43,127 bases of DNA from a virus (Duplodnaviria > Heunggongvirae > Uroviricota > Caudoviricetes), in IMG/VR virus record IMGVR_UViG_2529293240_000022; one strand, given 5' to 3'. Position numbers and translations under genes: made by a program. The notes beneath the pieces were generated by a model, which saw only the letters and a list, made by a program, of their open reading frames with translations, was not told the DNA's origin and did not search any database. Shown here piece by piece: positions 721-43,127 of this stretch (position 1 is its first letter; each line of letters begins with the position of its first letter).

Positions 721-1539
721 TTAAGCAGCCATCTGATGATATTTTTCCCTGAAGGCTGCCGGGGAGATATTCCCCAGACGAGAGTGACGACGCTGACGAT
801 TGTAGAAAATCTCAATGTATTCCCGTATTACTGAGATGGCTTCATCCCGGTTATTAAAACGATAGTGGCTCAGGCTCTCATTTTTCAGCGTTCCCCAGAA
901 GCTTTCCATCGGAGCGTTGTCGTAACAGTTACCTTTACGCGACATTGATGTTTTCAGACCAAACTGCTCCTGTATGACCCGGTAATCGTATGCGCAGTAC
1001 TGTGAACCTCGATCAGAGTGGTGGATTAGCCCGGCAGGTGGGCGCTGGCTCCTGAGCGCCATAAACAGGGCTTTACCTGTCAGCTCTTTTGTCATGCGCT
1101 CTCCCATGGCGTAGCCGACAATTTCGCACGTATAAACATCTTTGATGCCAGCGAGGTACAACCATCCCTCCTGTGTGGCAACATACGTCAGGTCCGCCAC
1201 CCAGACCTGATTTGGTGCTGTAGGAGCGAACGTCTGGTTCAGCAGATTTGGCGCAACTGGCAGATTGTGGTTCGAGTTCGTAGTCGCTCTGAACTTGCGT
1301 TTCTGCTTACAGCGTAGCCTTAGCTCCTTACGAAGACGTGCCAGTCGGTCACGACCAACGATGATGCCATTCTCTGCCAGCTCCGTCTGGAGCCGCCGGG
1401 TTCCATATGTTTCGCGAGTGCGGATATGTGCCACCTTAATCTCCAGTTTTAGCCGCTCATTACTTTGTTTTCTGTCTGAGGGTTCATGCTGTACCCAGTT
1501 GTAATAACCGCTCCTGGATACACCAAATACCTGACACAT
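721..1539 (-). CDS. IS3-family transposase OrfB (DDE integrase core); probably made as an OrfAB fusion by -1 frameshift at 1620-1626
   Basis: 272-aa ORF with conserved integrase-core motifs (HSDRGSQY, CYDNAPMESF). Confidence 0.8.
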   Translation of the reverse strand: MCQVFGVSRSGYYNWVQHEPSDRKQSNERLKLEIKVAHIRTRETYGTRRLQTELAENGIIVGRDRLARLRKELRLRCKQKRKFRATTNSNHNLPVAPNLLNQTFAPTAPNQVWVADLTYVATQEGWLYLAGIKDVYTCEIVGYAMGERMTKELTGKALFMALRSQRPPAGLIHHSDRGSQYCAYDYRVIQEQFGLKTSMSRKGNCYDNAPMESFWGTLKNESLSHYRFNNRDEAISVIREYIEIFYNRQRRHSRLGNISPAAFREKYHQMAA

Positions 1540-1574
1540 CGCGTCAATGGGAAATTGTTGTCGCCATTGTTCGA

Positions 1575-1877
1575 TTAACGCGTATTTTTCAGCGACTCCT
1601 GTGCAAAATACGCTGTTGCTTTTTTTAATATATCTCGCTCAAGGCGAGCTTCATTTAACGCCTTACGCAGTTGCAGAATTTCAGATTCCAGTTCAGCCAC
1701 CGTGCGGGAACCAGGAGTACCGAGCCCTTTTCTGGCGGCGGTAACCCATTGTCCTAAAGTGCCTTCAGGAAGAGATAATCGGGAAGCGCCTTCACTGATC
1801 GAAAGTTGATTTTCAAGAACCGTTCTGACAGCCTCGGCTTTGAACTCTTTAGAGTAACGTTGGGTTTTTCTGCTCAT
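1575..1877 (-). CDS. IS3-family transposase OrfA (HTH), 100 aa
   Basis: translation MSRKTQRYSKEFKAEAV...; ends ...ILKKATAYFAQ... over an A7 run (plus 1620-1626) typical of the -1 frameshift site. Confidence 0.8.
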   Translation of the reverse strand: MSRKTQRYSKEFKAEAVRTVLENQLSISEGASRLSLPEGTLGQWVTAARKGLGTPGSRTVAELESEILQLRKALNEARLERDILKKATAYFAQESLKNTR

Positions 1878-5480: not shown

Positions 5481-6628
5481 ACAGTTTAACGGCAAATAAC
5501 CGTTTGTCGCAACAGCTGGTGGTCAGTGTCGCTGAACACCTGTTGTTACGGCATGAATGCAGATTACCAGATCACCTGGCTGTAAGTAACCACAGAGAAC
5601 TTTACCTGACTGTGGGGGGCGAGTTGTGCAGGAACTTAACCGCTGGTTTCGTGACGGAAGAGGGCTTTATGTCCATGTTATTCGTTGGGAGCCAGAAACA
5701 CAGCGCGTTATCTATCTTCGCAAAGACTACCAGCATGAGTGCTTTAGTCCTTTGTGGAAATTCAGGCGTGATTTTGTTGAGTGTGAAGGACCACCAGCAC
5801 ATTGATTCTGCCATTCCGGGACGTTACACTGTTCAGGCACCTTATAAAGCGGGTGCCGGGATTGGCGTCCTGAAATTGATTACTGAGCATAACCGCGCTC
5901 ATGCGGTTTTTTCGTGTCATGAGCATTGCTACGCCCAAATTATGGTGGGGCGTACAGGGCCGACTTCGGTCGGGCCGGGTTCGGTAGTCTCCGGTAACGC
6001 CAACCCTGTACGTCTCACCACCTCTGTGATTGGCGTCCCATGTGGTGAGTTTTCTAAAAAACTGACTACCGGGGCTGTCACTATGACTACTCTCCCAACC
6101 CTCACTCAACCTGAAATTGCCATCGTTGATGGTCAGGCTGTTACTTCATCCCTGGCTGTTGCCAACTTCTTCTCCAAACGTCATGACGATGTACTGAAAA
6201 AGATCCGCACGCTTGAATGCTCCGCATCATTCACTGCCCGCAATTTTTCGGTGAGTGATTACACCGATTGCACAGGCCGCAAACTACCTTGCTATCAAAT
6301 CACCCGCGATGGCTTTGCGTTCCTTGCTATGGGCTTCACTGGTAAACGTGCTGCCCGGTTCAAAGAGGCATACATAAATGCCTTTAACCAGATGGAAAAA
6401 CTGCTTTCAAAGCCATCCACGCTGAGCGATGCCGCAGATAACGCCAGCGTGCTTTACTCCCACCTGTCGGTAATCCACAAGGTCTGGCTGCAGCAGCTTT
6501 ATCCCATGTTGGCAAAAGCCGAATCTCCGCTGGCTGTTAGCTTGTATGACTATATTAATGATGCTTCGGCGCTGGCCTGCCTCATAAATTTGTCGCTGAA
6601 TCCTTCAGAGGTAAGGGGGCGTAAATGA
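5477..6628 (+). CDS. Rha-family phage regulatory protein, copy 1, with unique 105-aa N-terminal extension
   Basis: Rha-type core (KRHDDVL...LPCYQITRDGFAFLAMGFTGKRA...FKEAYINAFNQME); ATGA overlap with upstream gene. Confidence 0.6.
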   Translation: MNSLTANNRLSQQLVVSVAEHLLLRHECRLPDHLAVSNHRELYLTVGGELCRNLTAGFVTEEGFMSMLFVGSQKHSALSIFAKTTSMSALVLCGNSGVILLSVKDHQHIDSAIPGRYTVQAPYKAGAGIGVLKLITEHNRAHAVFSCHEHCYAQIMVGRTGPTSVGPGSVVSGNANPVRLTTSVIGVPCGEFSKKLTTGAVTMTTLPTLTQPEIAIVDGQAVTSSLAVANFFSKRHDDVLKKIRTLECSASFTARNFSVSDYTDCTGRKLPCYQITRDGFAFLAMGFTGKRAARFKEAYINAFNQMEKLLSKPSTLSDAADNASVLYSHLSVIHKVWLQQLYPMLAKAESPLAVSLYDYINDASALACLINLSLNPSEVRGRK

Positions 6629-7527
6629 TCCGGAATATTTTCAAACTGTTTACCAATCGCCACCAGCACATTGATTCTGCCATTCCGGGACGTTACACTG
6701 TTCAGGCACCTTATAAAGCGGGTGCCGGGCGTGGAAACCCGAAATTCAATATAGAGCACAACCGCGCTCATGCGGTTTTTTCGTGTCATGAGCATCGTTA
6801 CGCCCAAATTATGGTGGGGCGTGCAGGGCCAACTTCGGTTGGGCCGGGTTCTATGTTGACCGGTATTTCCACCCCTGTACGTCTCACCACCTATATGGTC
6901 GTGGAAAGCCTTGGTGGTGAGTTCATTGAATTCAACATAGGGGCTGTCACCATGACTACTCTCCCAACCCAATCTCACCCTGAAATCACGATTATCAATG
7001 GTCGCGTTGTCACCACATCTCTTGCAGTAGCTAATTACTTTACTAAACGGCATGAGCGGGTTTTAGATAGAATTAGAAACCTCGAATGTTCCGCTGAATT
7101 TACTGAACACAATTTTGTGTTAAGTGAATACACCGACGCATCAGGCCGCAAACTCCCTTGTTACCAAATCACCCGCGACGGTTTTGCGTTTCTTGCCATG
7201 GGCTTCACGGGTAAACGTGCTGCCCAGTTCAAAGAGGCATACATCAATGCCTTTAACCAGATGGAGAAACAGCTTTCAAATCCCTCTGTACTGAGCGACG
7301 TTGCACATAACGCCAGCGTTCTCTATTCCTACATTTCATCAATTCATCAGGTCTGGCTGCAGCAGCTTTATCCTATGTTGGCAAAAGCCGAATCTCCGCT
7401 GGCTGTTAGCTTGTATGACTATATTAATGATGCTTCGGCACTGGCCTGCCTCATAAATTTGTCGCTGAACCCTTCAGAGGTAAGGGGGCGTAAATGATCC
7501 GGAATATTTTCAAACGGTTTACCAATC
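5792..7527 (+). repeat. Tandem direct duplication, two units of about 866 bp (5792-6657 and 6662-7527), mosaic identity
   Basis: first ~70 nt and last ~140 nt of the units are near-identical while the interior is substantially diverged, with an in-frame 3-nt indel; the 36-nt junction ATGATCCGGAATATTTTCAAAC... occurs at 6625 and 7494. Confidence 0.8.
6625..7497 (+). CDS. Rha-family phage regulatory protein, copy 2 (alternative internal start at 6952)
   Basis: paralogue of copy 1 with identical 5' and 3' ends and a diverged core; ATGA overlap. Confidence 0.65.
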   Translation: MIRNIFKLFTNRHQHIDSAIPGRYTVQAPYKAGAGRGNPKFNIEHNRAHAVFSCHEHRYAQIMVGRAGPTSVGPGSMLTGISTPVRLTTYMVVESLGGEFIEFNIGAVTMTTLPTQSHPEITIINGRVVTTSLAVANYFTKRHERVLDRIRNLECSAEFTEHNFVLSEYTDASGRKLPCYQITRDGFAFLAMGFTGKRAAQFKEAYINAFNQMEKQLSNPSVLSDVAHNASVLYSYISSIHQVWLQQLYPMLAKAESPLAVSLYDYINDASALACLINLSLNPSEVRGRK

Positions 7528-11971: not shown

Positions 11972-12358
11972 ATGCGTGATATTCAGATGGTTCTTGAACG
12001 CTGGGGGGCATGGGCTGCAAGTGGTAACACCGGGGTGGACTATTCTCCGATCGCTGCCGGATTCAAAGGACTTTTACCATCTGCCACTAAACCACGTCCG
12101 GCCTGCTGCGATGATGACGGACTTATCATTGAAAACTGTCTTGCTCGTCTGAAGCAGAAAAAACCTGAGGAGTATTCGCTTCTCATTGCTCATTATTTGT
12201 TGCGAATATCAAAAAGACAGATAGCCAGGACGAGAAAGAAAAGCGAAAAAGCAATACGAATTGAGATGCAGATAGCCGAAGGGTTTATTGACGGATGTTT
12301 GTCTGTGCTGGGGGTAAGACTGGAGATGGACGACTGGCTGCTAAAAAGTAAAAAATGA
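11972..12358 (+). CDS. Q: Late-gene antiterminator Q (QuuD/phage-21-type)
   Basis: N-terminus MRDIQMVLERWGAWAA resembles DLP12 QuuD from memory; GGAGAAAG site; followed by a tR'-like terminator. Confidence 0.7.
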   Translation: MRDIQMVLERWGAWAASGNTGVDYSPIAAGFKGLLPSATKPRPACCDDDGLIIENCLARLKQKKPEEYSLLIAHYLLRISKRQIARTRKKSEKAIRIEMQIAEGFIDGCLSVLGVRLEMDDWLLKSKK

Positions 12359-12420
12359 TTAGTGCGGTCCGCAAAAAGTATGTCAGTATGTTAAGAGTGG
12401 TTACTTCGCCACACAGCTTA

Positions 12421-12445
12421 AACCCGCCGCGAGCGGGTTTTTTTA
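12421..12445 (+). terminator. tR'-like rho-independent terminator downstream of Q (late promoter pR' expected just upstream, not pinned)
   Basis: stem CCCGC, loop CGCGA, stem GCGGG followed by T7. Confidence 0.7.
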
Positions 12446-12566
12446 TGGCTGAAATCGGTCCAGTACAGTAAACGTGCTGGTGGCGGTGAATACCTGTCTT
12501 TCAGCTTGCTGGCTTTTTCGACAAGAGTTATTGGTGTGTCACGTTAACCGAAAAAGGGAAAAAGAC

Positions 12567-12764
12567 ATGCTGAAACAGCAGGATATGACAGAAACCGCCA
12601 GAGTGGTGTTTAATGAATTAAGCGTCACCGAACCGGCGACAGTCGGGGAGATTGCGCAGAATACTTACCTTTCACGCGAACGCTGCCAGTTAATACTGAC
12701 CCAGCTGGTTATGGCGGGTCTGGCAGACTATCAGTTCGGTTGTTACAGACGCCTTCCGCAGTGA
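12567..12764 (+). CDS. Small winged-helix protein (65 aa), FaeA/PapI-like pattern (uncertain)
   Basis: AGGGA site; motif TVGEIAQNTYLSRERCQLILTQLVMAGL. Confidence 0.45.
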   Translation: MLKQQDMTETARVVFNELSVTEPATVGEIAQNTYLSRERCQLILTQLVMAGLADYQFGCYRRLPQ

Positions 12765-12776
12765 AGGCTTTTTTAT
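12751..12776 (+). terminator. Hairpin plus T-run overlapping the stop of the small wHTH gene
   Basis: stem GCCTTC, loop CGCAGT, stem GAAGGC followed by TTTTTTAT. Confidence 0.45.
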
Positions 12777-12915
12777 TTGTGGTAAATGGGCGGCTGGTGG
12801 GTGTTAGGGGCACCCACCAGCCATCTGCTCATGCGTTGGGGTCACAAGCAAACCTCAGGCCCATCTGCTTTGCGCAAAAGCGGTATGAGCCTATCAGAGA
12901 AGTGCTTATTGATCT

Positions 12916-13965
12916 ATGGCTAATACTGTAAAAATATCCAGTTGTGAGTTAATCAACGCCGACTGCTTGGAATTTATCCGGTCGTTACCCGAAAATTCTG
13001 TTGACCTGATAGTCACGGACCCGCCGTACTTTAAAGTGAAGCCTGAGGGCTGGGATAACCAGTGGAAGGGCGACGATGATTACCTGAAGTGGCTGGACCA
13101 GTGTCTGGCGCAGTTCTGGCGGGTGCTGAAACCTGCCGGAAGTCTTTACCTGTTCTGTGGTCATCGCCTGGCATCTGATATCGAAATCATGATGCGTGAA
13201 CGCTTCAGTGTGCTGAACCATATTATCTGGGCGAAGCCGTCCGGACGCTGGAACGGATGCAACAAGGAAAGCCTGCGGGCGTATTTCCCCGCCACAGAGC
13301 GCATTCTGTTCGCGGAACATTATCAGGGGCCGTATCGTCCGAAAGATGCCGGGTATGAGGCGAAGGGCAGGGCACTGAAACAGCATGTGATGGCCCCGCT
13401 GATTGCTTACTTTCGTGATGCGCGCGCTGCCCTGGGGATAACGGCAAAACAGATTGCAGATGCCACAGGAAAGAAAAACATGGTGCCGCACTGGTTCAGT
13501 GCCAGTCAGTGGCAGCTACCGAACGAAAGCGATTATCTGAAATTACAGTCGCTGTTTGCCCGGGTGGCAGAAGAGAAACATCAGCGCGGGGAACTGGAAA
13601 AGCCACACCACCAGCTGGTCAGCACATACAGTGAGCTGAACCGGCAGTATATGGAACTGCTGAGTGAATATAAAAATTTGCGGCGGTATTTCGGTGTGAC
13701 GGTGCAGGTGCCGTACACCGATGTGTGGACGTATAAACCGGTGCAGTACTATCCAGGGAAACATCCGTGCGAAAAACCGGCAGAAATGCTGCAGCAGATA
13801 ATCAGCGCAAGTAGTCGTCCTGGTGATCTGGTTGCGGATTTTTTCATGGGGTCGGGTTCAACGGTAAAAGCGGCGATGGCACTGGGGCGTCGTGCGATTG
13901 GTGTTGAGCTGGAGACCGGACGTTTTGAGCAGACAGTCAGGGAAGTTCAGGATTTAATCGTTTGA
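12916..13965 (+). CDS. Beta-class DNA amino-methyltransferase (N6-adenine or N4-cytosine), apparently orphan
   Basis: DPPY motif near N-terminus (VTDPPYF) and FxGSG motif near C-terminus (DFFMGSGST); no adjacent endonuclease-sized ORF. Confidence 0.8.
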   Translation: MANTVKISSCELINADCLEFIRSLPENSVDLIVTDPPYFKVKPEGWDNQWKGDDDYLKWLDQCLAQFWRVLKPAGSLYLFCGHRLASDIEIMMRERFSVLNHIIWAKPSGRWNGCNKESLRAYFPATERILFAEHYQGPYRPKDAGYEAKGRALKQHVMAPLIAYFRDARAALGITAKQIADATGKKNMVPHWFSASQWQLPNESDYLKLQSLFARVAEEKHQRGELEKPHHQLVSTYSELNRQYMELLSEYKNLRRYFGVTVQVPYTDVWTYKPVQYYPGKHPCEKPAEMLQQIISASSRPGDLVADFFMGSGSTVKAAMALGRRAIGVELETGRFEQTVREVQDLIV

Positions 13966-14014
13966 AACGGATGAGATTGCAGTATTAATTCCGTAACGTT
14001 ATTATTCTGCGCGC

Positions 14015-14090
14015 GGCCCTTTAGCTCAGTGGTGAGAGCGAGCGACTCATAATCGCCAGGTCGCTGGTTCAAATCCAGCAAGGGCCACCA
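14015..14090 (+). tRNA. ileZ: tRNA with CAU anticodon, tRNA-Ile2 (lysidine)-like, ileZ-like
   Basis: cloverleaf folded by hand: 7-bp acceptor stem GGCCCTT/AAGGGCC, anticodon loop CTCATAA, T-loop TTCAAAT, 3' CCA; closely resembles E. coli ileX. Confidence 0.8.
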
Positions 14091-14099
14091 TATCACATA

Positions 14100-14176
14100 C
14101 CGCCATTAGCTCATCGGGATAGAGCGCCAGCCTTCGAAGCTGGTTGCGCGGGGTTCGAGTCCTCGATGGCGGTCCA
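14100..14176 (+). tRNA. tRNA-Arg (anticodon UCG), argN-like
   Basis: cloverleaf folded by hand: acceptor CCGCCAT/ATGGCGG, anticodon loop CTTCGAA, T-loop TTCGAGT, 3' CCA. Confidence 0.7.
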
Positions 14177-14189
14177 TTATCTGTACCCT

Positions 14190-14266
14190 GCGTTGTTAGC
14201 TCAGCCGGACAGAGCAATTGCCTTCTAAGCAATCGGTCACTGGTTCGAATCCAGTACAACGCGCCA
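14190..14266 (+). tRNA. tRNA-Arg (anticodon UCU), argO-like
   Basis: cloverleaf folded by hand: acceptor GCGTTGT/ACAACGC, anticodon loop CTTCTAA, T-loop TTCGAAT, 3' CCA. Confidence 0.75.
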
Positions 14267-14280
14267 GACTTATTTTTCCC

Positions 14281-14305
14281 GGCTCGCTTTTGCGGGCCTT
14301 TTTTT
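14281..14305 (+). terminator. Rho-independent terminator after the tRNA cluster
   Basis: stem GGCTCGC / GCGGGCC (one G-U pair), loop TTTT, then T7. Confidence 0.5.
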
Positions 14306-14501
14306 AAATGTCTCACAATTCAGACGGTTGACAGTTGTCTGTTTTGCGGGGAGTTTGTTAAAAGAAACTGGCATGGTGAATCCCCCTGTGCGGAGGGGCA
14401 ATCAGCGAGTAGGTATATGGGATAATCGCGGATTCAGGTGCTGGTACTGAATTCACCGGGAGGCACCCGGCACCATGCAATGGCACATAGCGCCACTCTC
14501 C

Positions 14502-14561
14502 AGCCCCTCTCCGGAGGGGCTTTCTTATGGACAAAAAAAGCCCGCGCTGGGAGACGCGGGC
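14502..14561. terminator. Back-to-back hairpins in the tRNA to nanS-p spacer
   Basis: plus-strand AGCCCCTC-TCCG-GAGGGGCT (14502-14521) then TTCTT; minus-strand terminator GCCCGCG...CGCGGGC (14540-14561) preceded by A7. Confidence 0.4.
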
Positions 14562-14754: not shown

Positions 14755-16608
14755 ATGGCATTTAAACACTATGATGTTGTCAGGGCGGCGTCGCCGTCAG
14801 ACCTTGCGGAAAAGCTGACACACAAACTGAAAGAGGGCTGGCAGCCATATGGCGGACCGGTTGCCATTACGCCGTACACACTGATGCAGGCGGTGGCTAT
14901 TGAAGGAGATCCACAGGTCGGCCCTTCATCTGAGCCGGACTGGTTCTACGTGGTTGTGCTTGCCGGACAGTCCAACGGCATGGCCTACGGTGAAGGGCTT
15001 CCGTTACCGGATTCTTACGATGCTCCGGATCCGCGCATTAAACAGCTGGCGCGCCGCAGCACGGTAACTCCGGGTGGAGAGAGTTGTACGTATAACGACA
15101 TCATCCCGGCTGACCACTGTCTGCATGATGTGCAGGATATGAGTACGCTGAATCATCCGAAGGCAGACCTGAGCAAAGGGCAGTACGGCTGTGTCGGCCA
15201 GGGCTTACATATTGCCAAAAAACTGCTCCCGTATATCCCGAATAACGCGGGGATCCTGCTGGTACCATGCTGTCGTGGTGGTTCGGCATTCACCCAGGGC
15301 GCGGAGGGGACATTCAGTGCGGACGCGGGGGCCAGCCAGGATTCGGCGCGCTGGGGTGTGGGTAAACCGTTATATCAGGACCTGATTGCGCGCACTAAAG
15401 CTGCATTACAGAAGAACCCGAAAAATGTGTTGCTGGCGGTGTGCTGGATGCAGGGAGAGTTTGACATGAGCGCCGCCACCTACGCACAGCAACCTGCGCT
15501 GTTTACAGCCATGCTGAAGCAGTTTCGTGCTGACCTCACTGTGTTTAACGCGCAGTGTCATGGTGGCAGTGCTGTAAATGTGCCGTGGATTTGTGGTGAC
15601 ACGACGTATTACTGGAAAAACACCTACGGCACGCAGTACAACACCATTTACGGGGCGTACAAAAACAGGGAGAGTGAGGGCGTTTATTTTGTGCCCTTCA
15701 TGACAGACGGTAACGGCGTCAATACCGCCACTAACGCGCCGGCAGAAGATCCGGATATTCCGGCATCAGGATATTACGGTGCGGCATCGAGAACGAATGG
15801 AAACCAGGTATCATCAAACCGCCCGACACATTTCAGTTCATGGGCGCGCAGGAGCATTATTCCGGATCGTATGGCAACCGCTATTCTGAACGCAGCCGGG
15901 CGCACCTCAGCCTTCATCAGTGGTAAGGCACCGGAAATCAAACCCTCGCCCGGCGGCGACACGCCATCGGGGCCGCCTGAAGATGCATCCGTACGCACAA
16001 TCTCCCTGCTGCCGACAGCCGGAGAGGCTGCTGCGCAGGGCTGGACCATTAAGGACGGCGGAATTCAGTTGTCGGGTGGTGTATTTAAGATCGCCAAGCA
16101 GAGCAATAAAACCTGGTCCCTGATGCATCCGGTGGATGACGCAGTCTCCCTGCTGACACGGGGTGGCAGACTGAGCTGTAAGTTTCGACTGTCAGGCGCA
16201 CTGACCAACAACCAGTTCGGTCTGGGAATTTATCTGTATACCGATGTAGCGTTACCTGACGTCGTGGCGATGACCGGGACTGGTAACCCGTTCCTGATGT
16301 CGTTCTTCACCCAGACCACAGACGGCAAACTGAATCTGATGCATCACAAGAAAGCCGGAAACACAAAGTTGGGCGAGTTCGGGAATTACAGTAACGACTG
16401 GCAGACGCTGGAGCTGGTGTTCACCGCCGGCAGTGCCACGGTTACTCCGAAACTGAATGGAGTGGCTGGCCCGGCATTCCAGGTCATAAAAGACAGTCTG
16501 ACACTGGGACTGAATGCGTTGACGCTGACGGATGTTACAAAAAATGCAGCGTATGGCGTTGAGATAGAAAGTCTGGTGCTGGAGATAAATGCACCGGCAT
16601 CATCATAA
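14755..16608 (+). CDS. NanS-p-like prophage sialate O-acetylesterase (N-terminal DUF1737-like region plus SGNH hydrolase)
   Basis: 617-aa translation with GQSN motif (VVLAGQSNGMAYGEG); position between tRNAs and lysis genes as in Stx phages; GGGAGG site. Confidence 0.65.
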   Translation: MAFKHYDVVRAASPSDLAEKLTHKLKEGWQPYGGPVAITPYTLMQAVAIEGDPQVGPSSEPDWFYVVVLAGQSNGMAYGEGLPLPDSYDAPDPRIKQLARRSTVTPGGESCTYNDIIPADHCLHDVQDMSTLNHPKADLSKGQYGCVGQGLHIAKKLLPYIPNNAGILLVPCCRGGSAFTQGAEGTFSADAGASQDSARWGVGKPLYQDLIARTKAALQKNPKNVLLAVCWMQGEFDMSAATYAQQPALFTAMLKQFRADLTVFNAQCHGGSAVNVPWICGDTTYYWKNTYGTQYNTIYGAYKNRESEGVYFVPFMTDGNGVNTATNAPAEDPDIPASGYYGAASRTNGNQVSSNRPTHFSSWARRSIIPDRMATAILNAAGRTSAFISGKAPEIKPSPGGDTPSGPPEDASVRTISLLPTAGEAAAQGWTIKDGGIQLSGGVFKIAKQSNKTWSLMHPVDDAVSLLTRGGRLSCKFRLSGALTNNQFGLGIYLYTDVALPDVVAMTGTGNPFLMSFFTQTTDGKLNLMHHKKAGNTKLGEFGNYSNDWQTLELVFTAGSATVTPKLNGVAGPAFQVIKDSLTLGLNALTLTDVTKNAAYGVEIESLVLEINAPASS

Positions 16609-27756: not shown

Positions 27757-28332
27757 ATGGCGATAAAAGGGCTTGATCAGGCGATTGACAATCTGAGCCG
27801 GGTTCGTAAAAACGCCATTCCGGCTGCTTCTGCAATGACCATTAACCGCGTGGCCACAACGGCGATTAATCAGTCTTCGTCACAGGTTGCCCGGGAAACC
27901 AGGGTGAGACGGAAACTGGTAAAGGAACGGTCCAGACTGAAACGGGCGACGGTCAGAAATCCGAATGCCAGAATTATCGTTAACCGCGGTGATCTCCCTG
28001 TGATTAAGCTGGGGATCAGAATGCTGGGGCGTCGTCCGAACAGCATACTCAAAGCCGGTCAGCATCGTTATCAGCGGGCATTTATCCAGCGATTAAATAA
28101 TGGGCGCTGGCATGTTATGCAACGTCTTCCCCAGGCCAGATATAAGGAGGGCAATGACGACAAGGGAAGGAAAAAGCGTAATCGCCTTCCCATTCAGGTG
28201 GTGAAAATCCCGATGGCGGCCCCACTGAAACAGGCATTTGATGAGAATGTTGACCGTATCCGGCGTGAACGCCTGCCTAAAGAACTGGCATACGCGCTGA
28301 AACAACAACTGAGGATTGCGATAAAACGATGA
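27757..28332 (+). CDS. Z: Tail completion protein gpZ
   Basis: 191 aa, lambda Z-like. Confidence 0.9.
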   Translation: MAIKGLDQAIDNLSRVRKNAIPAASAMTINRVATTAINQSSSQVARETRVRRKLVKERSRLKRATVRNPNARIIVNRGDLPVIKLGIRMLGRRPNSILKAGQHRYQRAFIQRLNNGRWHVMQRLPQARYKEGNDDKGRKKRNRLPIQVVKIPMAAPLKQAFDENVDRIRRERLPKELAYALKQQLRIAIKR

Positions 28333-28731: not shown

Positions 28732-29487
28732 ATGGCAACACCAAATCCCCTTGAGCCGGTAAAAGGTGCCGGTACCACTCTGTGGGTTTACAACGGCAAG
28801 GGTGATGCTTATGCAAACCCGTTGTCAGACGATGACTGGCAGCGACTGGCTAAGGTGAAGGATCTGACGCCGGGCGAGATGACGGCAGAATCCTACGATG
28901 ATAACTACCTGGATGATGAAGACGCGGACTGGACCGCGACCGGGCAGGGGCAGAAATCTGCAGGTGATACCAGTTTTACGCTGGCCTGGAAACCGGGAGA
29001 GGAAGGCCAGAAAGGGCTTATAGGCTGGTTTGAAAGCGGCGATGTCCGGGCCTATAAAATCCGTTTTCCGAATGGCACGGTGGATGTGTTTCGTGGCTGG
29101 GTCAGCAGTATCGGTAAGGCCGTGACGGCGAAAAAAGAAGTGATCACCCGCACGGTGAAAGTCACTAACGTGGGTAAACCTTCTGTAGCGGAAGAACGCA
29201 GCAAAATTACGCCGGTCAGTGCGATTAAGGTGACGCCGACATCCGGTACGGTGGCAAAAGGGAAAACAACCACCCTGACGGTTTCTTTTGAGCCGGAAAG
29301 TGCAACCGACAAGACGTTCAGAGCGGTTTCCGCCGATCCGTCGAAAGCCACCATTAGTGTGAAAGATATGACAATTACGGTAAACGGCGTGGCGACAGGT
29401 AAGGTGCAGATCCCTGTGGTGAGCGGAAATGGTCAGTTCGCCGCAGTGGCTGAAGTCACCGTTACTGAAGCGGGCGCTGCAGGGTAA
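28732..29487 (+). CDS. V: Major tail protein gpV
   Basis: 251 aa, lambda V-like. Confidence 0.9.
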
Positions 29488-29500
29488 ACGGAGGTAATAC

Positions 29501-29932
29501 ATGTTTCTGAAAACAGAACAATTTGAATATAACGGTGTGTCTGTCACGCTTTCCGAATTGTCTGCGCTGCAGCGTATCGAGCATCTTTCCCTTCTGAAAC
29601 GGCGTGCAGAACAGGCAGAATCCTGCGGCAACCTGCAGGTAAGCGTGGAAGATCTCGTCAGAACCGGCGCGTTTCTGGTGGCGATGTCCCTGTGGCATAA
29701 CCATCCACAGAAAACGCAGTCACCGTCAATGAATGAGGCCGTGATGAAGATAGAGCAGGAAGTGCTCACCACCTGGCCTGCCGATGCCATTGCCCGGGCG
29801 GAAGACGTGGTGTTGTGCCTGTCCGGGATGATCGAAGCTGTTCGTCCGGATACTGATATTACTGAAGTGGCGAAAAATAACACGCTGACTGATGATGATT
29901 TTTCTGCGGGAAAGTCTTCGACGGCGAGCTGA
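29501..29932 (+). CDS. G: Tail assembly chaperone gpG
   Basis: 143 aa, lambda G-like. Confidence 0.9.
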   Translation: MFLKTEQFEYNGVSVTLSELSALQRIEHLSLLKRRAEQAESCGNLQVSVEDLVRTGAFLVAMSLWHNHPQKTQSPSMNEAVMKIEQEVLTTWPADAIARAEDVVLCLSGMIEAVRPDTDITEVAKNNTLTDDDFSAGKSSTAS

Positions 29933-30372
29933 ACTTTGCCCTCAGACTGGCGCGTGAGATGGGGAGACCCGACTGGCGCGCCATGCTTGCCGGGATGACA
30001 TCCACCGAATATGCCGACTGGCACCGTTTTTACCGCACGCATTATTTTCAGGATACCCAGCTGGATATGCATTTTTCCGGGCTGACGTACGCTGTACTCA
30101 GCCTGTTTTTTTGCGATCCGGATATGCATCCCTCTGATTTCAATCTGCTTGTCCCCCGGCATGAGGAAGAGCAGGTGGAGAGGCCGGATGAGGACAAAAT
30201 GCTGATGCAGAAAGCGGCAGGACTTGCCGGAGGCGTCCGGTTCGGTGGGGACGGAGGGCGCGATATTTTATCGTCTGCGGATGTGGCGGATGTCATGGTG
30301 GATGATGCCGCATTAATGATGGCTTCAGCGGGGATTCCGGGAGGTGTGAGATATGTCCCAGCCGGTTGGTGA
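29501..30372 (+). CDS. T: Tail assembly chaperone gpGT made by -1 programmed frameshift at G GGA AAG (29908-29914)
   Basis: slippery heptamer read in the G frame; T-frame ORF 29959..30372 lacks its own start context. Confidence 0.8.
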
Positions 30373-33252: not shown

Positions 33253-33950
33253 TGCAGGATATTCACGAAGAAAGTCTGAGCGAGTCGGTTAAATCAGAGC
33301 AGTCACCGCGGGTGGTACTCTGGGAAATCGACCTGACGGTACAGGGCGGTGAGCGGTATTTTTTCTGTAATGAGCTGAATGAAAAAGGGGAGCCGGTCAC
33401 CTGGCAGGGGCGGCAATATCAGGCATACCCGATTGACGGCAGCGGTTTTGAGATGAGCGGGAAGGGCAGCAGTGCCAGACCGTCGCTGACGGTGTCCAAT
33501 CTGTTCGGTCTGGTCACCGGGATGGCGGAAGACCTGCAGAGTCTGGTGGGGGCCACGGTGGTCCGCCGCCGGGTGTATGCCCGTTTTCTGGATGCGGTGA
33601 ATTTCGGTGCGGGCAATCCGGCGGCGGACCCGGAGCAGGAGCTGAGTGACCGCTGGGTGGTGGAGCAGATGTCGCAGCTGACAGCCATGACGGCCTCGTT
33701 TGTGCTGGCCACACCGACCGAGACGGACGGGGCGCTGTTTCCCGGTCGTATCATGCTGGCGAACACCTGTATGTGGACCTACCGCTCTGATGAGTGTGGT
33801 TACACGGGCGGGGCTGTGGCGGATGAGTTCGATAAACCCACCACCGATATCCGTAAGGACAGATGCAGCAAGTGCATGCGCGGGTGTGAGATGCGCGGCA
33901 TGGTGGCTAATTTTGGCGGTTTCCTTTCCATTAATAAACTTTCGCAGTAA
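33252..33950 (+). CDS. L: Minor tail protein gpL
   Basis: 232 aa, lambda L-like. Confidence 0.9.
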   Translation: MQDIHEESLSESVKSEQSPRVVLWEIDLTVQGGERYFFCNELNEKGEPVTWQGRQYQAYPIDGSGFEMSGKGSSARPSLTVSNLFGLVTGMAEDLQSLVGATVVRRRVYARFLDAVNFGAGNPAADPEQELSDRWVVEQMSQLTAMTASFVLATPTETDGALFPGRIMLANTCMWTYRSDECGYTGGAVADEFDKPTTDIRKDRCSKCMRGCEMRGMVANFGGFLSINKLSQ

Positions 33951-34704: not shown

Positions 34705-35282
34705 ACACGGCAGCGGAAGCCATCCGGGCGCTGTCGTTACAGGTGCCGGGATTCCGCCGTCAGATGAACGAAGGCTGGTACCAGATACGTATTCGCGGTG
34801 AGGACACGGCACCGGAGGCGGTGTACGCCCGTCTTCACGAACCTCTGGGTGAGGGGGCGGTCATCCACATTGTGCCGCGACTGGCCGGAGCCGGAAAGGG
34901 CGGACTGCAGATTGTGCTGGGGGCGGCAGCCATCGTGGGCTCTTTCTTCACTGCCGGAGGCTCGATGGCGTTATGGGGTACAGCCCTGAGTGCCGGTGGT
35001 TTTTCTGCCACCACGATGCTGTTTTCACTGGGTGCCAGTATGATTCTGGGCGGTGTGGCCCAGATGCTGGCACCGAAGGCAAAAACACCGGATTACCGCG
35101 CAACGGATAACGGTAAACAGAACACGTATTTTTCGTCACTGGACAATATGATTGCCCAGGGTAACCCGATGCCGGTGCCTTACGGGGAAATGCTGGTTGG
35201 TTCACGACGGATATCCCAGGACATCAGCACCCGTGATGAAGGCGGGGGCGGAAAGGTCGTGGTTATCGGGCGGCAGGGGTAA
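34602..35282 (+). CDS. I: Tail tip assembly protein gpI
   Basis: 226 aa, lambda I-like. Confidence 0.9.
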   Translation: MATTNAFCLASPPLARICLHGDLQRFGRRLSLYVNTAAEAIRALSLQVPGFRRQMNEGWYQIRIRGEDTAPEAVYARLHEPLGEGAVIHIVPRLAGAGKGGLQIVLGAAAIVGSFFTAGGSMALWGTALSAGGFSATTMLFSLGASMILGGVAQMLAPKAKTPDYRATDNGKQNTYFSSLDNMIAQGNPMPVPYGEMLVGSRRISQDISTRDEGGGGKVVVIGRQG

Positions 35283-35295
35283 AAAGAATAAAAAA

Positions 35296-35321
35296 ATCCC
35301 GCAGAGTTGCGGAACTGCGGG
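35296..35321 (-). terminator. Minus-strand terminator-like hairpin in the I-J spacer
   Basis: stem TCCCGCAG / CTGCGGGA preceded on plus strand by A7 (T-run on minus strand). Confidence 0.4.
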
Positions 35322-35453
35322 AGCGTTACGAAGATTAAGTGTAAGGAATTATTCTTATGTCACGACAAAAAACATTAACGCAGAGAAATTATTAGCACCA
35401 CAGTCAGTTTGTGAAAATGTGAAGATATTCAGAAGTTTTATTCAGTGATGATA

Positions 35454-42543: not shown

Positions 42544-43127
42544 TGGCATTCAGAATGAGTGAACAACCACGGACCATAAAAATTTATAATCTGCTGGCCG
42601 GAACTAATGAATTTATTGGTGAAGGTGACGCATATATTCCGCCTCATACAGGTCTGCCTGCAAACAGTACCGATATTGCACCGTTAGATATTCCGGCAGG
42701 CTTCGTGGCTGTTTTCAACAGTGATGAGTCATCGTGGCATCTCTTTGAAGACCATCGGGGTAAAACGGTTTATGACGTGGCTTCCGGCGACGCGTTATTT
42801 ATTTCTGAACTCGGTCCGTTACCGGAAAATGTTACCTGGTTATCGCCGGAAGGGGAGTTTCAGAAGTGGAACGGCACAGCCTGGGTGAAGGATACGGAAG
42901 CAGAAAAACTGTTCCGGATCCGGGAGGCGGAAGAAACAAAAAACAACCTGATGCAGGTAGCCAGTGAGCATATTGCGCCGCTTCAGGATGCTGCAGATCT
43001 GGAAATTGCAACGGAGGAAGAAACCTCATTGCTGGAAGCCTGGAAAAAGTATCGGGTGTTGCTGAACCGTGTTGATACATCAACTGCACCTGATATTGAG
43101 TGGCCTACGAACCCTGTCAGGGAGTAA
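42543..43127 (+). CDS. tfa: Tail fibre assembly protein (Tfa)
   Basis: 194-aa translation typical of lambdoid Tfa; TAATG overlap with stf. Confidence 0.8.

What the first reader, a model, noticed from the sequence alone, without database searches (positions are those of the whole stretch)
14015..14266. Prophage tRNA cluster: Ile2-like (CAU), Arg (UCG), Arg (UCU)
Three tRNAs fold into cloverleaves and decode codons that are rare in E. coli (AUA, CGA, AGA). Such clusters may support late-gene translation or counter host tRNA-targeting defences (anticodon nucleases).
Basis: partly seen in the sequence, partly recalled or inferred. Interest (0 to 1): 0.45.

Follow-up and report, generated by a model that had tools for sequence, protein, structure and literature searches.

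The report
Known prophage rare-codon tRNA trio (ileZ-argN-argO)
The three tRNA genes are real and intact, but they are the long-known ileZ-argN-argO cassette that lambdoid and Shiga-toxin prophages of E. coli carry just upstream of the toxin slot, and they most likely top up the supply of tRNAs for rare arginine and isoleucine codons that phage genes over-use.

Summary
Confirmed and ordinary. ARAGORN and Rfam find three + strand tRNA genes exactly at 14015-14266: CAU, Arg-UCG and Arg-UCU (72.5, 56.1 and 70.1 bits; genuine K-12 tRNAs score 48.5-72.1). The CAU tRNA is an Ile2 (lysidine) type: 92% identical to host ileY, 67% to elongator Met. A deposited Stx2a phage names the same genes ileZ, argN and argO. 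The window's ileZ and argO are 100% identical to them, and argN differs at 4 bases. The window is the stx-empty form of that locus. The trio occurs in about half of 5,426 complete E. coli genomes. Across 117 copies in six unrelated upstream contexts the cassette keeps its own TTGNNN-17-TATTAT promoter, and it ends in a conserved terminator. Codon test: of 61 sense codons the three most enriched over host genes are AGG (5.5x), AGA (4.1x) and CGG (2.5x), all readable by the two Arg tRNAs. AUA is 1.5x. CGA is not enriched. The bias is not late-specific, and tRNA-less lambda shows it too. The anticodon loops equal the host's, so nothing supports the anticodon-nuclease idea. Already known; low interest.

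The parts
13977..14014 (+). Candidate sigma-70 promoter of the cassette: -35 TTGCAG (13977-13982), 17-nt spacer, -10 TATTAT (14000-14005), and a GC-rich discriminator TCTGCGCGC (14006-14014) that ends at the first base of tRNA 1
   Evidence: It matches only 8 of 12 consensus positions and the generic scan did not call it. However, TTGNNN-17-TATTAT ending 9-10 nt before the tRNA is present in all 117 copies with an intact tRNA 1, across six unrelated upstream contexts. Host ileX has the same layout. Function is inferred, not shown.
14015..14090 (+). tRNA-Ile2 (anticodon CAU, to be converted to lysidine-AU), equal to ileZ; reads AUA
   Evidence: 72.5 bits. 92.1% identical to K-12 ileY, with the same acceptor stem and the same anticodon loop. 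100% identical to the gene annotated ileZ in Stx2a phage AP012536. Diversity 0.003 per site over 106 copies.
14100..14176 (+). tRNA-Arg (anticodon UCG), equal to argN; reads CGA by Watson-Crick pairing and probably CGG by wobble. K-12 has no tRNA with this anticodon
   Evidence: 56.1 bits. A20, C35 and G36 are present. C1-G72 and U73 are unusual. Four mismatches to the annotated argN. It is the most variable of the three, and some copies elsewhere carry stem mismatches.
14190..14266 (+). tRNA-Arg (anticodon UCU), equal to argO; reads AGA and AGG
   Evidence: 70.1 bits. 72.7% identical to host argU with an identical anticodon loop CUUCUAA. 100% identical to the annotated argO. One compensatory C-G to G-C change in the T stem among copies.
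14281..14305 (+). Intrinsic terminator of the cassette: stem GGCTCGC / GCGGGCC, loop TTTT, then seven T
   Evidence: Folding energy -14 kcal/mol, z = -3.9. Conserved in all the common downstream contexts listed, with loop variants TTTT and TTCG. Sequences diverge only after the T-run.
14305..14309 (.). Empty stx slot: the point where Stx2 phages carry the roughly 1.33-kb stx2AB cassette
   Evidence: The window is collinear with Stx2a phage L251 up to 14304 and again from 14309. L251 holds stx2A and stx2B in between.
11972..12358 (+). Context: late-gene antiterminator Q, 1.66 kb upstream. It places the cassette inside the late transcription unit
   Evidence: PHROG 79, E = 2e-48. Annotated as antiterminator Q family in related prophages. 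Terminator-like hairpins follow at 12420-12440 and 12751-12768.
12916..13965 (+). Context: DNA methyltransferase gene immediately upstream; its stop codon lies 11 nt before the -35 hexamer
   Evidence: Pfam N6_N4_Mtase, E = 2e-44. The same neighbour is seen in Stx2 phages.
14342..14532 (+). Context: STnc100-family prophage small RNA immediately downstream, followed by the nanS-p esterase gene (14755-16608)
   Evidence: Rfam RF02076, 139 bits. Pfam SASA, DUF1737 and DUF6645 for the esterase. Described as a prophage sRNA family in bioRxiv 10.64898/2026.05.13.724894.

Best explanation
This is the ileZ-argN-argO tRNA cassette of lambdoid and Stx prophages: a 330-bp self-contained unit made of a promoter, three tRNA genes and a terminator. 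It sits in the late region after Q and a DNA methylase, directly before the slot that holds stx2AB in toxin phages and is empty here.

Most likely mechanism:
1. The three genes are transcribed together from their own sigma-70 promoter. During lytic growth they are also transcribed by Q-modified polymerase reading through from pR'. The precursor is cut by the host's RNase P and 3'-end processing enzymes.
2. The CAU tRNA is converted by host TilS to lysidine-34, charged by IleRS, and reads AUA.
3. The UCU tRNA is charged with Arg and reads AGA and AGG.
4. The UCG tRNA is charged with Arg and reads CGA by Watson-Crick pairing and probably CGG by U.G wobble. This adds an anticodon that E. coli K-12 lacks.

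Together they raise the supply of the scarcest decoders for codons that phage and other horizontally acquired genes use 2.5 to 5.5 times more often than host genes. It is a natural counterpart of the rare-tRNA helper plasmids used for protein expression. The benefit is quantitative, not essential.

Shown here: the genes, their identity elements, conservation of the genes and flanks, the module boundaries, and the codon bias. Inferred: promoter activity, processing, base modifications, aminoacylation, CGG reading, and any fitness effect.
For: - The tRNAs are genuine.
- Ile2 identity. The sequence is 92.1% identical to ileY. C4-G69, C5-G68, U12-A23, C29-G41, A37, A38 and A73 are all present. From my own knowledge of Ikeuchi et al. 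2005 and Nureki et al. 1994, these are the TilS and IleRS determinants. Elongator Met has U4 and A5 at the corresponding positions.
- Arg identity. A20, C35 and U36 or G36 are present in both Arg tRNAs.
- Known-cassette identity. The same order, spacing and neighbours are seen in a Stx2a phage where the genes are annotated ileZ, argN and argO. Sequence identity is 100%, 95% and 100%.
- Purifying selection. Diversity per site is 0.003, 0.064 and 0.018 for the three tRNAs, against 0.196 in the 13-nt spacer, over 106 copies. One compensatory stem change is seen.
- Autonomous unit. The promoter hexamers and the terminator are conserved in six unrelated upstream contexts and several unrelated downstream contexts, and the terminator is strong.
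- Demand. AGG, AGA and CGG are the three most enriched of 61 codons (p from 2e-13 to 4e-14). AUA is 1.5x (p = 0.009). Host-rare CTA is depleted, so this is not a blanket rare-codon effect.
- Loaded genes. Individual late genes and Q carry many of these codons: tail completion gene 111 per 1000, Q 79 per 1000, against 14.6 in the host sample.
- General slot. Other lambdoid phages hold other tRNAs at the same post-Q position, and ACA, the codon for one of those, ranks fourth here.
Against: - CGA, the Watson-Crick codon of argN, is not enriched (3.6 against 3.2 per 1000).
- argN is the least conserved of the three, and it carries stem mismatches in a sub-lineage.
- The bias is as strong in early genes as in late genes.
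- Lambda has the same bias without any tRNA gene.
- A published t-test found no codon-adaptation difference between lambdoid phages with and without the trio. Codon usage has therefore not visibly co-evolved with the cassette, and any benefit may be small.
- The promoter matches only 8 of 12 consensus positions and was not called by the generic scan.
- No expression, charging or phenotype data were available to me.
- The host baseline is a 100-kb K-12 sample and not the window's own host.
Confidence: 0.8

Rival explanations
1. Counter-defence. The tRNAs replace, or act as decoys for, host tRNAs destroyed by anticodon nucleases (for example colicin D-type enzymes that cut tRNA-Arg), so that phage translation continues.
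For: Two of the three are Arg tRNAs, and colicin D is a known E. coli nuclease that targets tRNA-Arg (named in PMC10264068). argN carries an anticodon the host lacks, and an unusual C1-G72 pair and U73. Virally encoded tRNAs that neutralise tRNA-cutting defences are documented for other phages (abstract of PMC12409363).
Against: The anticodon loops of ileZ and argO are identical to those of ileX/ileY and argU, whereas the proposed hallmark of evasion is loop mutation. Codon frequencies do differ between phage and host for the cognate codons, and the absence of such a difference was that paper's argument against codon compensation. From my own knowledge, no nuclease targeting tRNA-Ile2 is known. 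The set of anticodons matches the classic E. coli rare-codon set better than it matches any nuclease's target set. No tRNA nuclease or tRNA repair gene was found among the 30 window ORFs scanned.
Confidence: 0.06
2. Lysogen-benefit moron. The cassette is expressed constitutively from its own promoter in the prophage state. Its main selected effect is on the host cell, through better translation of rare-codon-rich acquired genes such as virulence genes and other prophages, and not on the phage's own late genes. This is a variant of the best explanation (same molecular mechanism, different beneficiary), so its confidence overlaps with that one.
For: The cassette has its own conserved promoter and terminator, independent of pR' and Q. 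It is intact here although two IS3-family elements sit in the prophage, one of them inside the late operon. The trio is present in 2578 of 5426 complete E. coli genomes, with up to 13 places per genome. Codon enrichment is prophage-wide, not late-specific.
Against: There are no expression data. This reading overlaps with the best explanation and does not exclude it. The IS insertions may be recent. argN decay in some copies shows that selection is not uniform.
Confidence: 0.3
3. Neutral passenger or recombination anchor. The tRNAs were picked up from a former host and persist by hitch-hiking. Their main consequence is to provide a conserved 330-bp block at which lambdoid phages exchange the neighbouring cargo, such as stx.
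For: ileZ is 92% identical to host ileY, which suggests capture from a host. Flanking contexts switch exactly at the cassette's edges. Lambda does well without tRNAs. Some argN copies decay, and 6 of 121 copies have a truncated argO.
Against: Diversity in the tRNAs is 3 to 60 times lower than in the adjacent 13-nt spacer. Identity elements and CCA ends are retained. The promoter hexamers are conserved while the neighbouring bases vary. The anticodons match the three most over-used codons. Neutrality would not predict that match.
Confidence: 0.08

Closest known systems
ileZ-argN-argO of Stx-converting phages (933W, VT2-Sakai/Sp5, Stx2a_1447 and others)
   Same: Same three anticodons, order and spacing. 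Same upstream methylase and same downstream terminator. ileZ and argO are 100% identical and argN is 95% identical to the genes so named in AP012536. An 'ileX tRNA gene' next to stx2 was reported in 1997 (Schmidt et al., cited in PMC3636060).
   Different: This prophage has no stx genes. The terminator is followed directly by the STnc100-family sRNA and nanS-p.
Host rare-codon tRNA genes ileX and ileY (Ile2, CAU) and argU (Arg, UCU)
   Same: Same anticodons and identical anticodon loops. ileZ is 92% identical to ileY, with the same acceptor stem. The promoter layout resembles that of ileX.
   Different: argO is only 73% identical to argU. ileZ has A27.C43 where the host genes have G27.U43. argN (UCG) has no K-12 counterpart, since K-12 reads CGN codons with ACG (inosine) and CCG anticodons.
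tRNA genes in the post-Q slot of other lambdoid phages (tRNA-Asn GUU and tRNA-Thr UGU in SfI, Sf6, ST64T and phage 21)
   Same: Same genomic position downstream of Q, and the same codon-supply rationale. ACA is over-used in those phages and ranks fourth here.
   Different: Different anticodons and unrelated sequences.
tRNA clusters of virulent phages (T4, T5), and laboratory rare-tRNA plasmids (argU/ileY/leuW and pRARE types)
   Same: They supply AGA/AGG and AUA decoders to boost translation of genes that are poorly adapted to E. coli (my own knowledge).
   Different: This is a temperate-phage cassette of only three genes. For T5, counter-defence roles of its tRNAs have been demonstrated, and nothing of that kind is indicated here.

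Membership tests
tRNA (Rfam RF00005) | Covariance-model score above the gathering threshold, with a full-length cloverleaf | tested here: met
   72.5, 56.1 and 70.1 bits against a gathering score of 29, covering model positions 1-71 of 71. K-12 tRNAs score 48.5-72.1 bits under the same model.
tRNA (Rfam RF00005) | Conserved tertiary and loop nucleotides: U8, A14, G18G19, U33, the T-loop TTCRA, and a 7-nt anticodon loop | tested here: met
   All are present in the three sequences. tRNA 2 has U15 with G48 in place of the usual purine-15/pyrimidine-48 pair.
tRNA-Ile2 (lysidine type, as ileX and ileY) | CAU anticodon plus the acceptor-stem pairs C4-G69 and C5-G68 that TilS uses to tell it from tRNA-Met | tested here: met
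   The acceptor stem GGCCCTT/AAGGGCC is identical to that of ileY. Elongator Met has T4 and A5. The role of these pairs as determinants is from my own knowledge.
tRNA-Ile2 (lysidine type, as ileX and ileY) | IleRS identity set: A73, U12-A23, C29-G41, A37, A38 | tested here: met
   Read directly from the sequence and the alignment.
tRNA-Ile2 (lysidine type, as ileX and ileY) | C34 actually modified to lysidine, and the tRNA charged with Ile | not testable with these tools
   Requires tRNA mass spectrometry or aminoacylation assays.
tRNA-Arg (E. coli ArgRS substrates) | A20 in the D loop, C35, and U36 or G36 | tested here: met
   Both Arg tRNAs have GGA at positions 18-20 and the anticodons TCG or TCT.
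tRNA-Arg (E. coli ArgRS substrates) | Purine discriminator base (A73 or G73), a minor determinant | tested here: inconclusive
   argO has G73. argN has U73, which differs from all K-12 Arg tRNAs. The effect on charging is unknown.
ileZ-argN-argO cassette of Stx and lambdoid prophages | Three genes in this order between the post-Q methylase and the stx slot, with near-identical sequence | tested here: met
   Collinear at 92.4% identity from 12367 to 14304.
Nuclease-evading phage tRNAs (in the sense of PMC10264068) | Anticodon-loop substitutions relative to the host tRNA with the same anticodon | tested here: not met
   The loops of ileZ against ileX/ileY, and of argO against argU, are identical at 7 of 7 positions. 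argN has no host counterpart to compare with.
Nuclease-evading phage tRNAs (in the sense of PMC10264068) | No phage-versus-host codon-frequency difference for the encoded tRNAs | tested here: not met
   AGG is 5.5x, AGA 4.1x, CGG 2.5x and AUA 1.5x enriched.

The most novel reading that the evidence does not exclude
The two Arg tRNAs, especially argN with its non-host UCG anticodon, C1-G72 pair and U73 discriminator, could be resistant substitutes that keep arginine decoding going when a host or competitor nuclease that cuts tRNA-Arg (colicin D-like, or one not yet described) is active. That would make this very common prophage cassette a counter-defence module and not a codon-supply module.
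Probability: 0.06. Interest if true: 0.55.

Novelty: already known. Interest (0 to 1): 0.1.

Why it matters
It matters little as a discovery. The cassette has been annotated in Stx phages since the late 1990s and is present in about half of complete E. coli genomes.

Three points are still useful:
- The window is the stx-empty form of the Shiga-toxin locus, and the toxin slot begins exactly at the end of the tRNA terminator.
- The comparative data define the cassette as a self-contained promoter-to-terminator unit. This predicts expression in uninduced lysogens and in defective prophages.
- The codons that match demand are AGG, AGA and CGG, with a weaker match for AUA and none for CGA. That corrects the usual 'AUA, CGA, AGA' statement.

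Recent sRNA surveys have read tRNA hits near STnc100 and Pas sRNAs as integration sites. Here they are this internal cassette.

Tried and rejected
- The genome-collection scan used a loose pattern of anticodon loops only. ARAGORN confirmed a real trio in only three of those loci.
- Literature searches on the gene names failed. Prefix matching swamped the first one. Whole-word searches found nothing relevant. The 933W genome paper is not held. The naming therefore rests on a deposited annotation and on my memory of Plunkett et al. 1999.
- The generic promoter scan did not call the cassette promoter. I rely on cross-context conservation instead.
- Single-sequence MFE folding gave non-cloverleaf optima for tRNAs 1 and 3. 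I judged this uninformative.
- My first greedy ORF set contained spurious antisense ORFs (28825-30162, 19186-19473, 24698-24949 and 33419-33754 on the minus strand) and one short plus-strand ORF (35236-35448). None has a PHROG hit. I removed them, and also the IS at 16720-17948, before the final codon counts. The IS transposase at 721-1877 was left in the curated set, which is a small contamination of about 370 codons.
- I tested whether the cassette promoter is homologous to the host ileY or ileX upstream regions. It is not. Only the layout is similar.
- I checked whether the copies with a truncated argO mark an integration site. They are simple deletions that run into the STnc100/nanS region.

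Full report
**Observation.** ARAGORN finds exactly three tRNA genes in the window, all on the + strand and exactly at the reported coordinates: 14015-14090 (anticodon CAT), 14100-14176 (Arg, TCG) and 14190-14266 (Arg, TCT). Rfam's tRNA model scores them 72.5, 56.1 and 70.1 bits against a gathering score of 29. Genuine K-12 tRNAs run through the same model score 48.5-72.1 bits, with argU at 72.1, argX at 64.1 and argW at 63.4. The alignments show full cloverleaves. tRNA 1 has one non-standard pair (A27.C43), and tRNAs 2 and 3 have none. All three encode CCA. RefSeq genomes with a 100% identical 252-bp copy annotate tRNA-Ile, tRNA-Arg and tRNA-Arg, with no pseudogene flag.

**Which CAU tRNA.** Against K-12 genes, tRNA 1 is 92.1% identical to ileY and 89.5% to ileX. 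It is only 67.5% identical to elongator Met and 59.7% to initiator Met. Its acceptor stem (GGCCCTT/AAGGGCC, including C4-G69 and C5-G68) and its anticodon loop are identical to ileY's. U12-A23, C29-G41, A37, A38 and A73 are also present. From my own knowledge these are the TilS and IleRS determinants, and tRNA-Met has U4 and A5 instead. All prophage copies have A27.C43 where the host genes have G27.U43. I cannot say whether that matters.

**The Arg tRNAs.** Both have A20, C35 and U36 or G36. tRNA 3 (UCU) is 72.7% identical to argU and has the same anticodon loop. tRNA 2 (UCG) has no K-12 counterpart, because K-12 carries ACG (four copies), CCG, UCU and CCU. Its closest K-12 match is 67.5%, and it has an unusual C1-G72 pair and a U73 discriminator.

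**What it is.** The window is a lambdoid prophage with these features in order:
- cI, cro, cII, two Rha/Ash genes, Dam, RusA, KilA-N and DUF968;
- Q (11972-12358), a small ORF, and an N6/N4 DNA methylase (12916-13965);
- the tRNAs;
- an STnc100-family sRNA (14342-14532) and nanS-p (14755-16608);
- the lysis genes and lambda-like head and tail genes.

In Stx2a phage Stx2a_1447 (AP012536) the same three genes follow the same methylase, are annotated ileZ, argN and argO, and are followed directly by stx2A and stx2B. The window's ileZ and argO are 100% identical to these, and argN differs at four positions. The two sequences are collinear at 92% identity from 12367 to 14304. The Stx2 phage then has about 1.33 kb holding stx2AB, and homology resumes at window 14309. 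The window is therefore the stx-empty form of the classic Stx locus. A tRNA gene of this kind next to stx2 was reported in 1997 (Schmidt et al., cited in PMC3636060). Stx-phage papers routinely list two tRNA-Arg genes and one 'tRNA-Met' gene. At least 80% of the 252-bp trio is present in 2578 of 5426 complete E. coli genomes, with up to 13 places per genome. It matches 387 phage records, mostly Stx-converting phages.

**Anatomy of the unit.** I collected 121 copies from viral contigs, comprising 61 distinct sequences.
- *Upstream.* All 117 copies with an intact tRNA 1 have TTGNNN, a 17-nt spacer and TATTAT ending 9-10 nt before the mature 5' end, followed by a mostly GC-rich discriminator. Further upstream the sequences fall into six unrelated contexts, and two of those have a terminator hairpin immediately before the -35 hexamer. 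Host ileX has the same layout, TTGCGA-17-TATAAT ending 10 nt upstream.
- *Downstream.* A hairpin and T-run (14281-14305; -14 kcal/mol, z = -3.9) is conserved, with loop variants TTTT and TTCG. Sequences diverge only after it, into STnc100, stx2A or other contexts.

The cassette is thus a self-contained promoter-to-terminator module of about 330 bp. It also lies 1.66 kb downstream of Q, inside the late transcription unit. Promoter activity is inferred: the match is 8 of 12, and the generic scan did not call it.

**Conservation.** Over 106 copies, diversity per site is 0.003 for ileZ, 0.018 for argO and 0.064 for argN, against 0.196 in the 13-nt spacer. argO shows one compensatory C-G to G-C change. 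argN toggles between G.U and G-C in its T stem. A sub-lineage of argN has A.A and A.C mismatches and sometimes TCA in place of CCA, and the window's copy does not. Six copies have argO deleted from just after the anticodon. Selection is clear for ileZ and argO and weaker for argN.

**Codon test.** I compared 46 curated window ORFs (11,917 codons) with 67 long ORFs from 100 kb of K-12 (24,430 codons). The three most enriched of the 61 sense codons are AGG (4.9 against 0.9 per 1000, 5.5x), AGA (5.6 against 1.4, 4.1x) and CGG (12.3 against 4.8, 2.5x), each with p below 1e-11. AUA is 1.5x (p = 0.009, rank 12). CGA is unchanged (3.6 against 3.2 per 1000). Host-rare CTA is depleted.

A UCU anticodon reads AGA and AGG. 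A UCG anticodon reads CGA and, by U.G wobble, plausibly CGG. The match between supply and demand is therefore good for AGR and CGG, modest for AUA and absent for CGA. It is not late-specific: early genes have AGA 7.1 and AGG 5.7 per 1000, and only CGG is concentrated in head and tail genes, at 18.9. The genes most loaded with these codons are a tail-completion gene (111 per 1000), a minor tail gene, the portal gene and Q (79 per 1000), against 14.6 in the host sample.

Control: lambda has no tRNA genes and shows the same bias, with AGA 9.2, AGG 4.8, CGG 10.4 and AUA 8.9 per 1000. A published comparison found no codon-adaptation difference between lambdoid phages with and without these tRNAs (PMC4631060). 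The tRNAs answer a demand common to lambdoid phages and are dispensable.

**Counter-defence idea.** The published criteria for nuclease-evading phage tRNAs are anticodon-loop changes relative to the host tRNA and no phage-versus-host codon difference (PMC10264068). Neither is met here. The ileZ and argO loops equal those of the host genes, and the codon frequencies differ. No tRNA nuclease or tRNA repair gene was found among the 30 window ORFs scanned against Pfam or PHROGs. I cannot exclude the idea for argN, but I rate it at about 6%.

**Verdict.** These are real, intact tRNAs. The best explanation is codon supply from a known, very common prophage cassette, with a confidence of about 0.8 when the lysogen-benefit variant is included. 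Novelty: already known. Interest: low.

Noticed in passing
window 16720-17948 (- strand): An IS3-family insertion sequence (orfA 17583-17948, orfB 16720-17511) sits between nanS-p and the holin gene. It interrupts the late operon, so the prophage may be defective while its tRNA cassette stays intact.
   Followed up: partly
window 721-1877 (- strand): A second IS3-family element (rve integrase core plus HTH_Tnp_1 transposase ORFs) lies near the left end of the window. No phage integrase gene was found in the window.
   Followed up: no
window 5837-6025 and 6706-6894: Two tandem copies of an isrK sRNA plus C4 antisense RNA module (Rfam, 59-82 bits). Each lies ahead of a Rha/Ash antirepressor-type ORF, so this looks like a duplicated antirepressor control module.
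   Followed up: no
window 14305-14532: An STnc100-family prophage sRNA (139 bits) starts 37 nt after the tRNA terminator. In a Stx2a phage, stx2AB is inserted exactly between that terminator and this element. A 2026 preprint on Pas and STnc100 sRNAs interprets nearby tRNA hits as integration sites. Here they are the phage's own internal cassette.
   Followed up: partly
window 42886-43084: A strong Rfam hit to the IS009 RNA family (225 bits) in the tail-fibre region at the right end of the window.
   Followed up: no
L043, L044, L053, L090, L096, L104 (for example L044 around 3876): Six of 121 viral-contig copies have argO cut immediately after the anticodon (...CCTTCTAAGCA|GCTGTGG...), by a deletion that joins it to the region upstream of STnc100 and nanS.
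   Followed up: yes
viral-contig copies of argN; not the window copy: A sub-lineage of argN has an A.A mismatch in the acceptor stem and an A.C mismatch in the T stem, and sometimes TCA in place of CCA. These copies appear to be decaying. argN is also the least conserved of the three (diversity 0.064 per site).
   Followed up: partly
window 14041 and 14057 (tRNA 1 positions 27 and 43): Every prophage copy of ileZ has A27.C43 at the top of the anticodon stem, where host ileX and ileY have G27.U43. It is a fixed double difference that keeps a wobble-like geometry. Its significance is unknown.
   Followed up: partly
window 11972-12358 (Q) and 27757-28332: The antiterminator gene Q carries 10 AUA, CGA, AGA or AGG codons in 127 (79 per 1000, against 14.6 in the host sample; Bonferroni p = 9e-4). 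A tail-completion gene carries 111 per 1000. Translation of Q itself could be sensitive to supply of these tRNAs.
   Followed up: no
window, all ORFs: ACA (Thr) is the fourth most enriched codon (2.3x). Other lambdoid phages carry a tRNA-Thr(UGU) in the same post-Q slot (PMC3636060).
   Followed up: no
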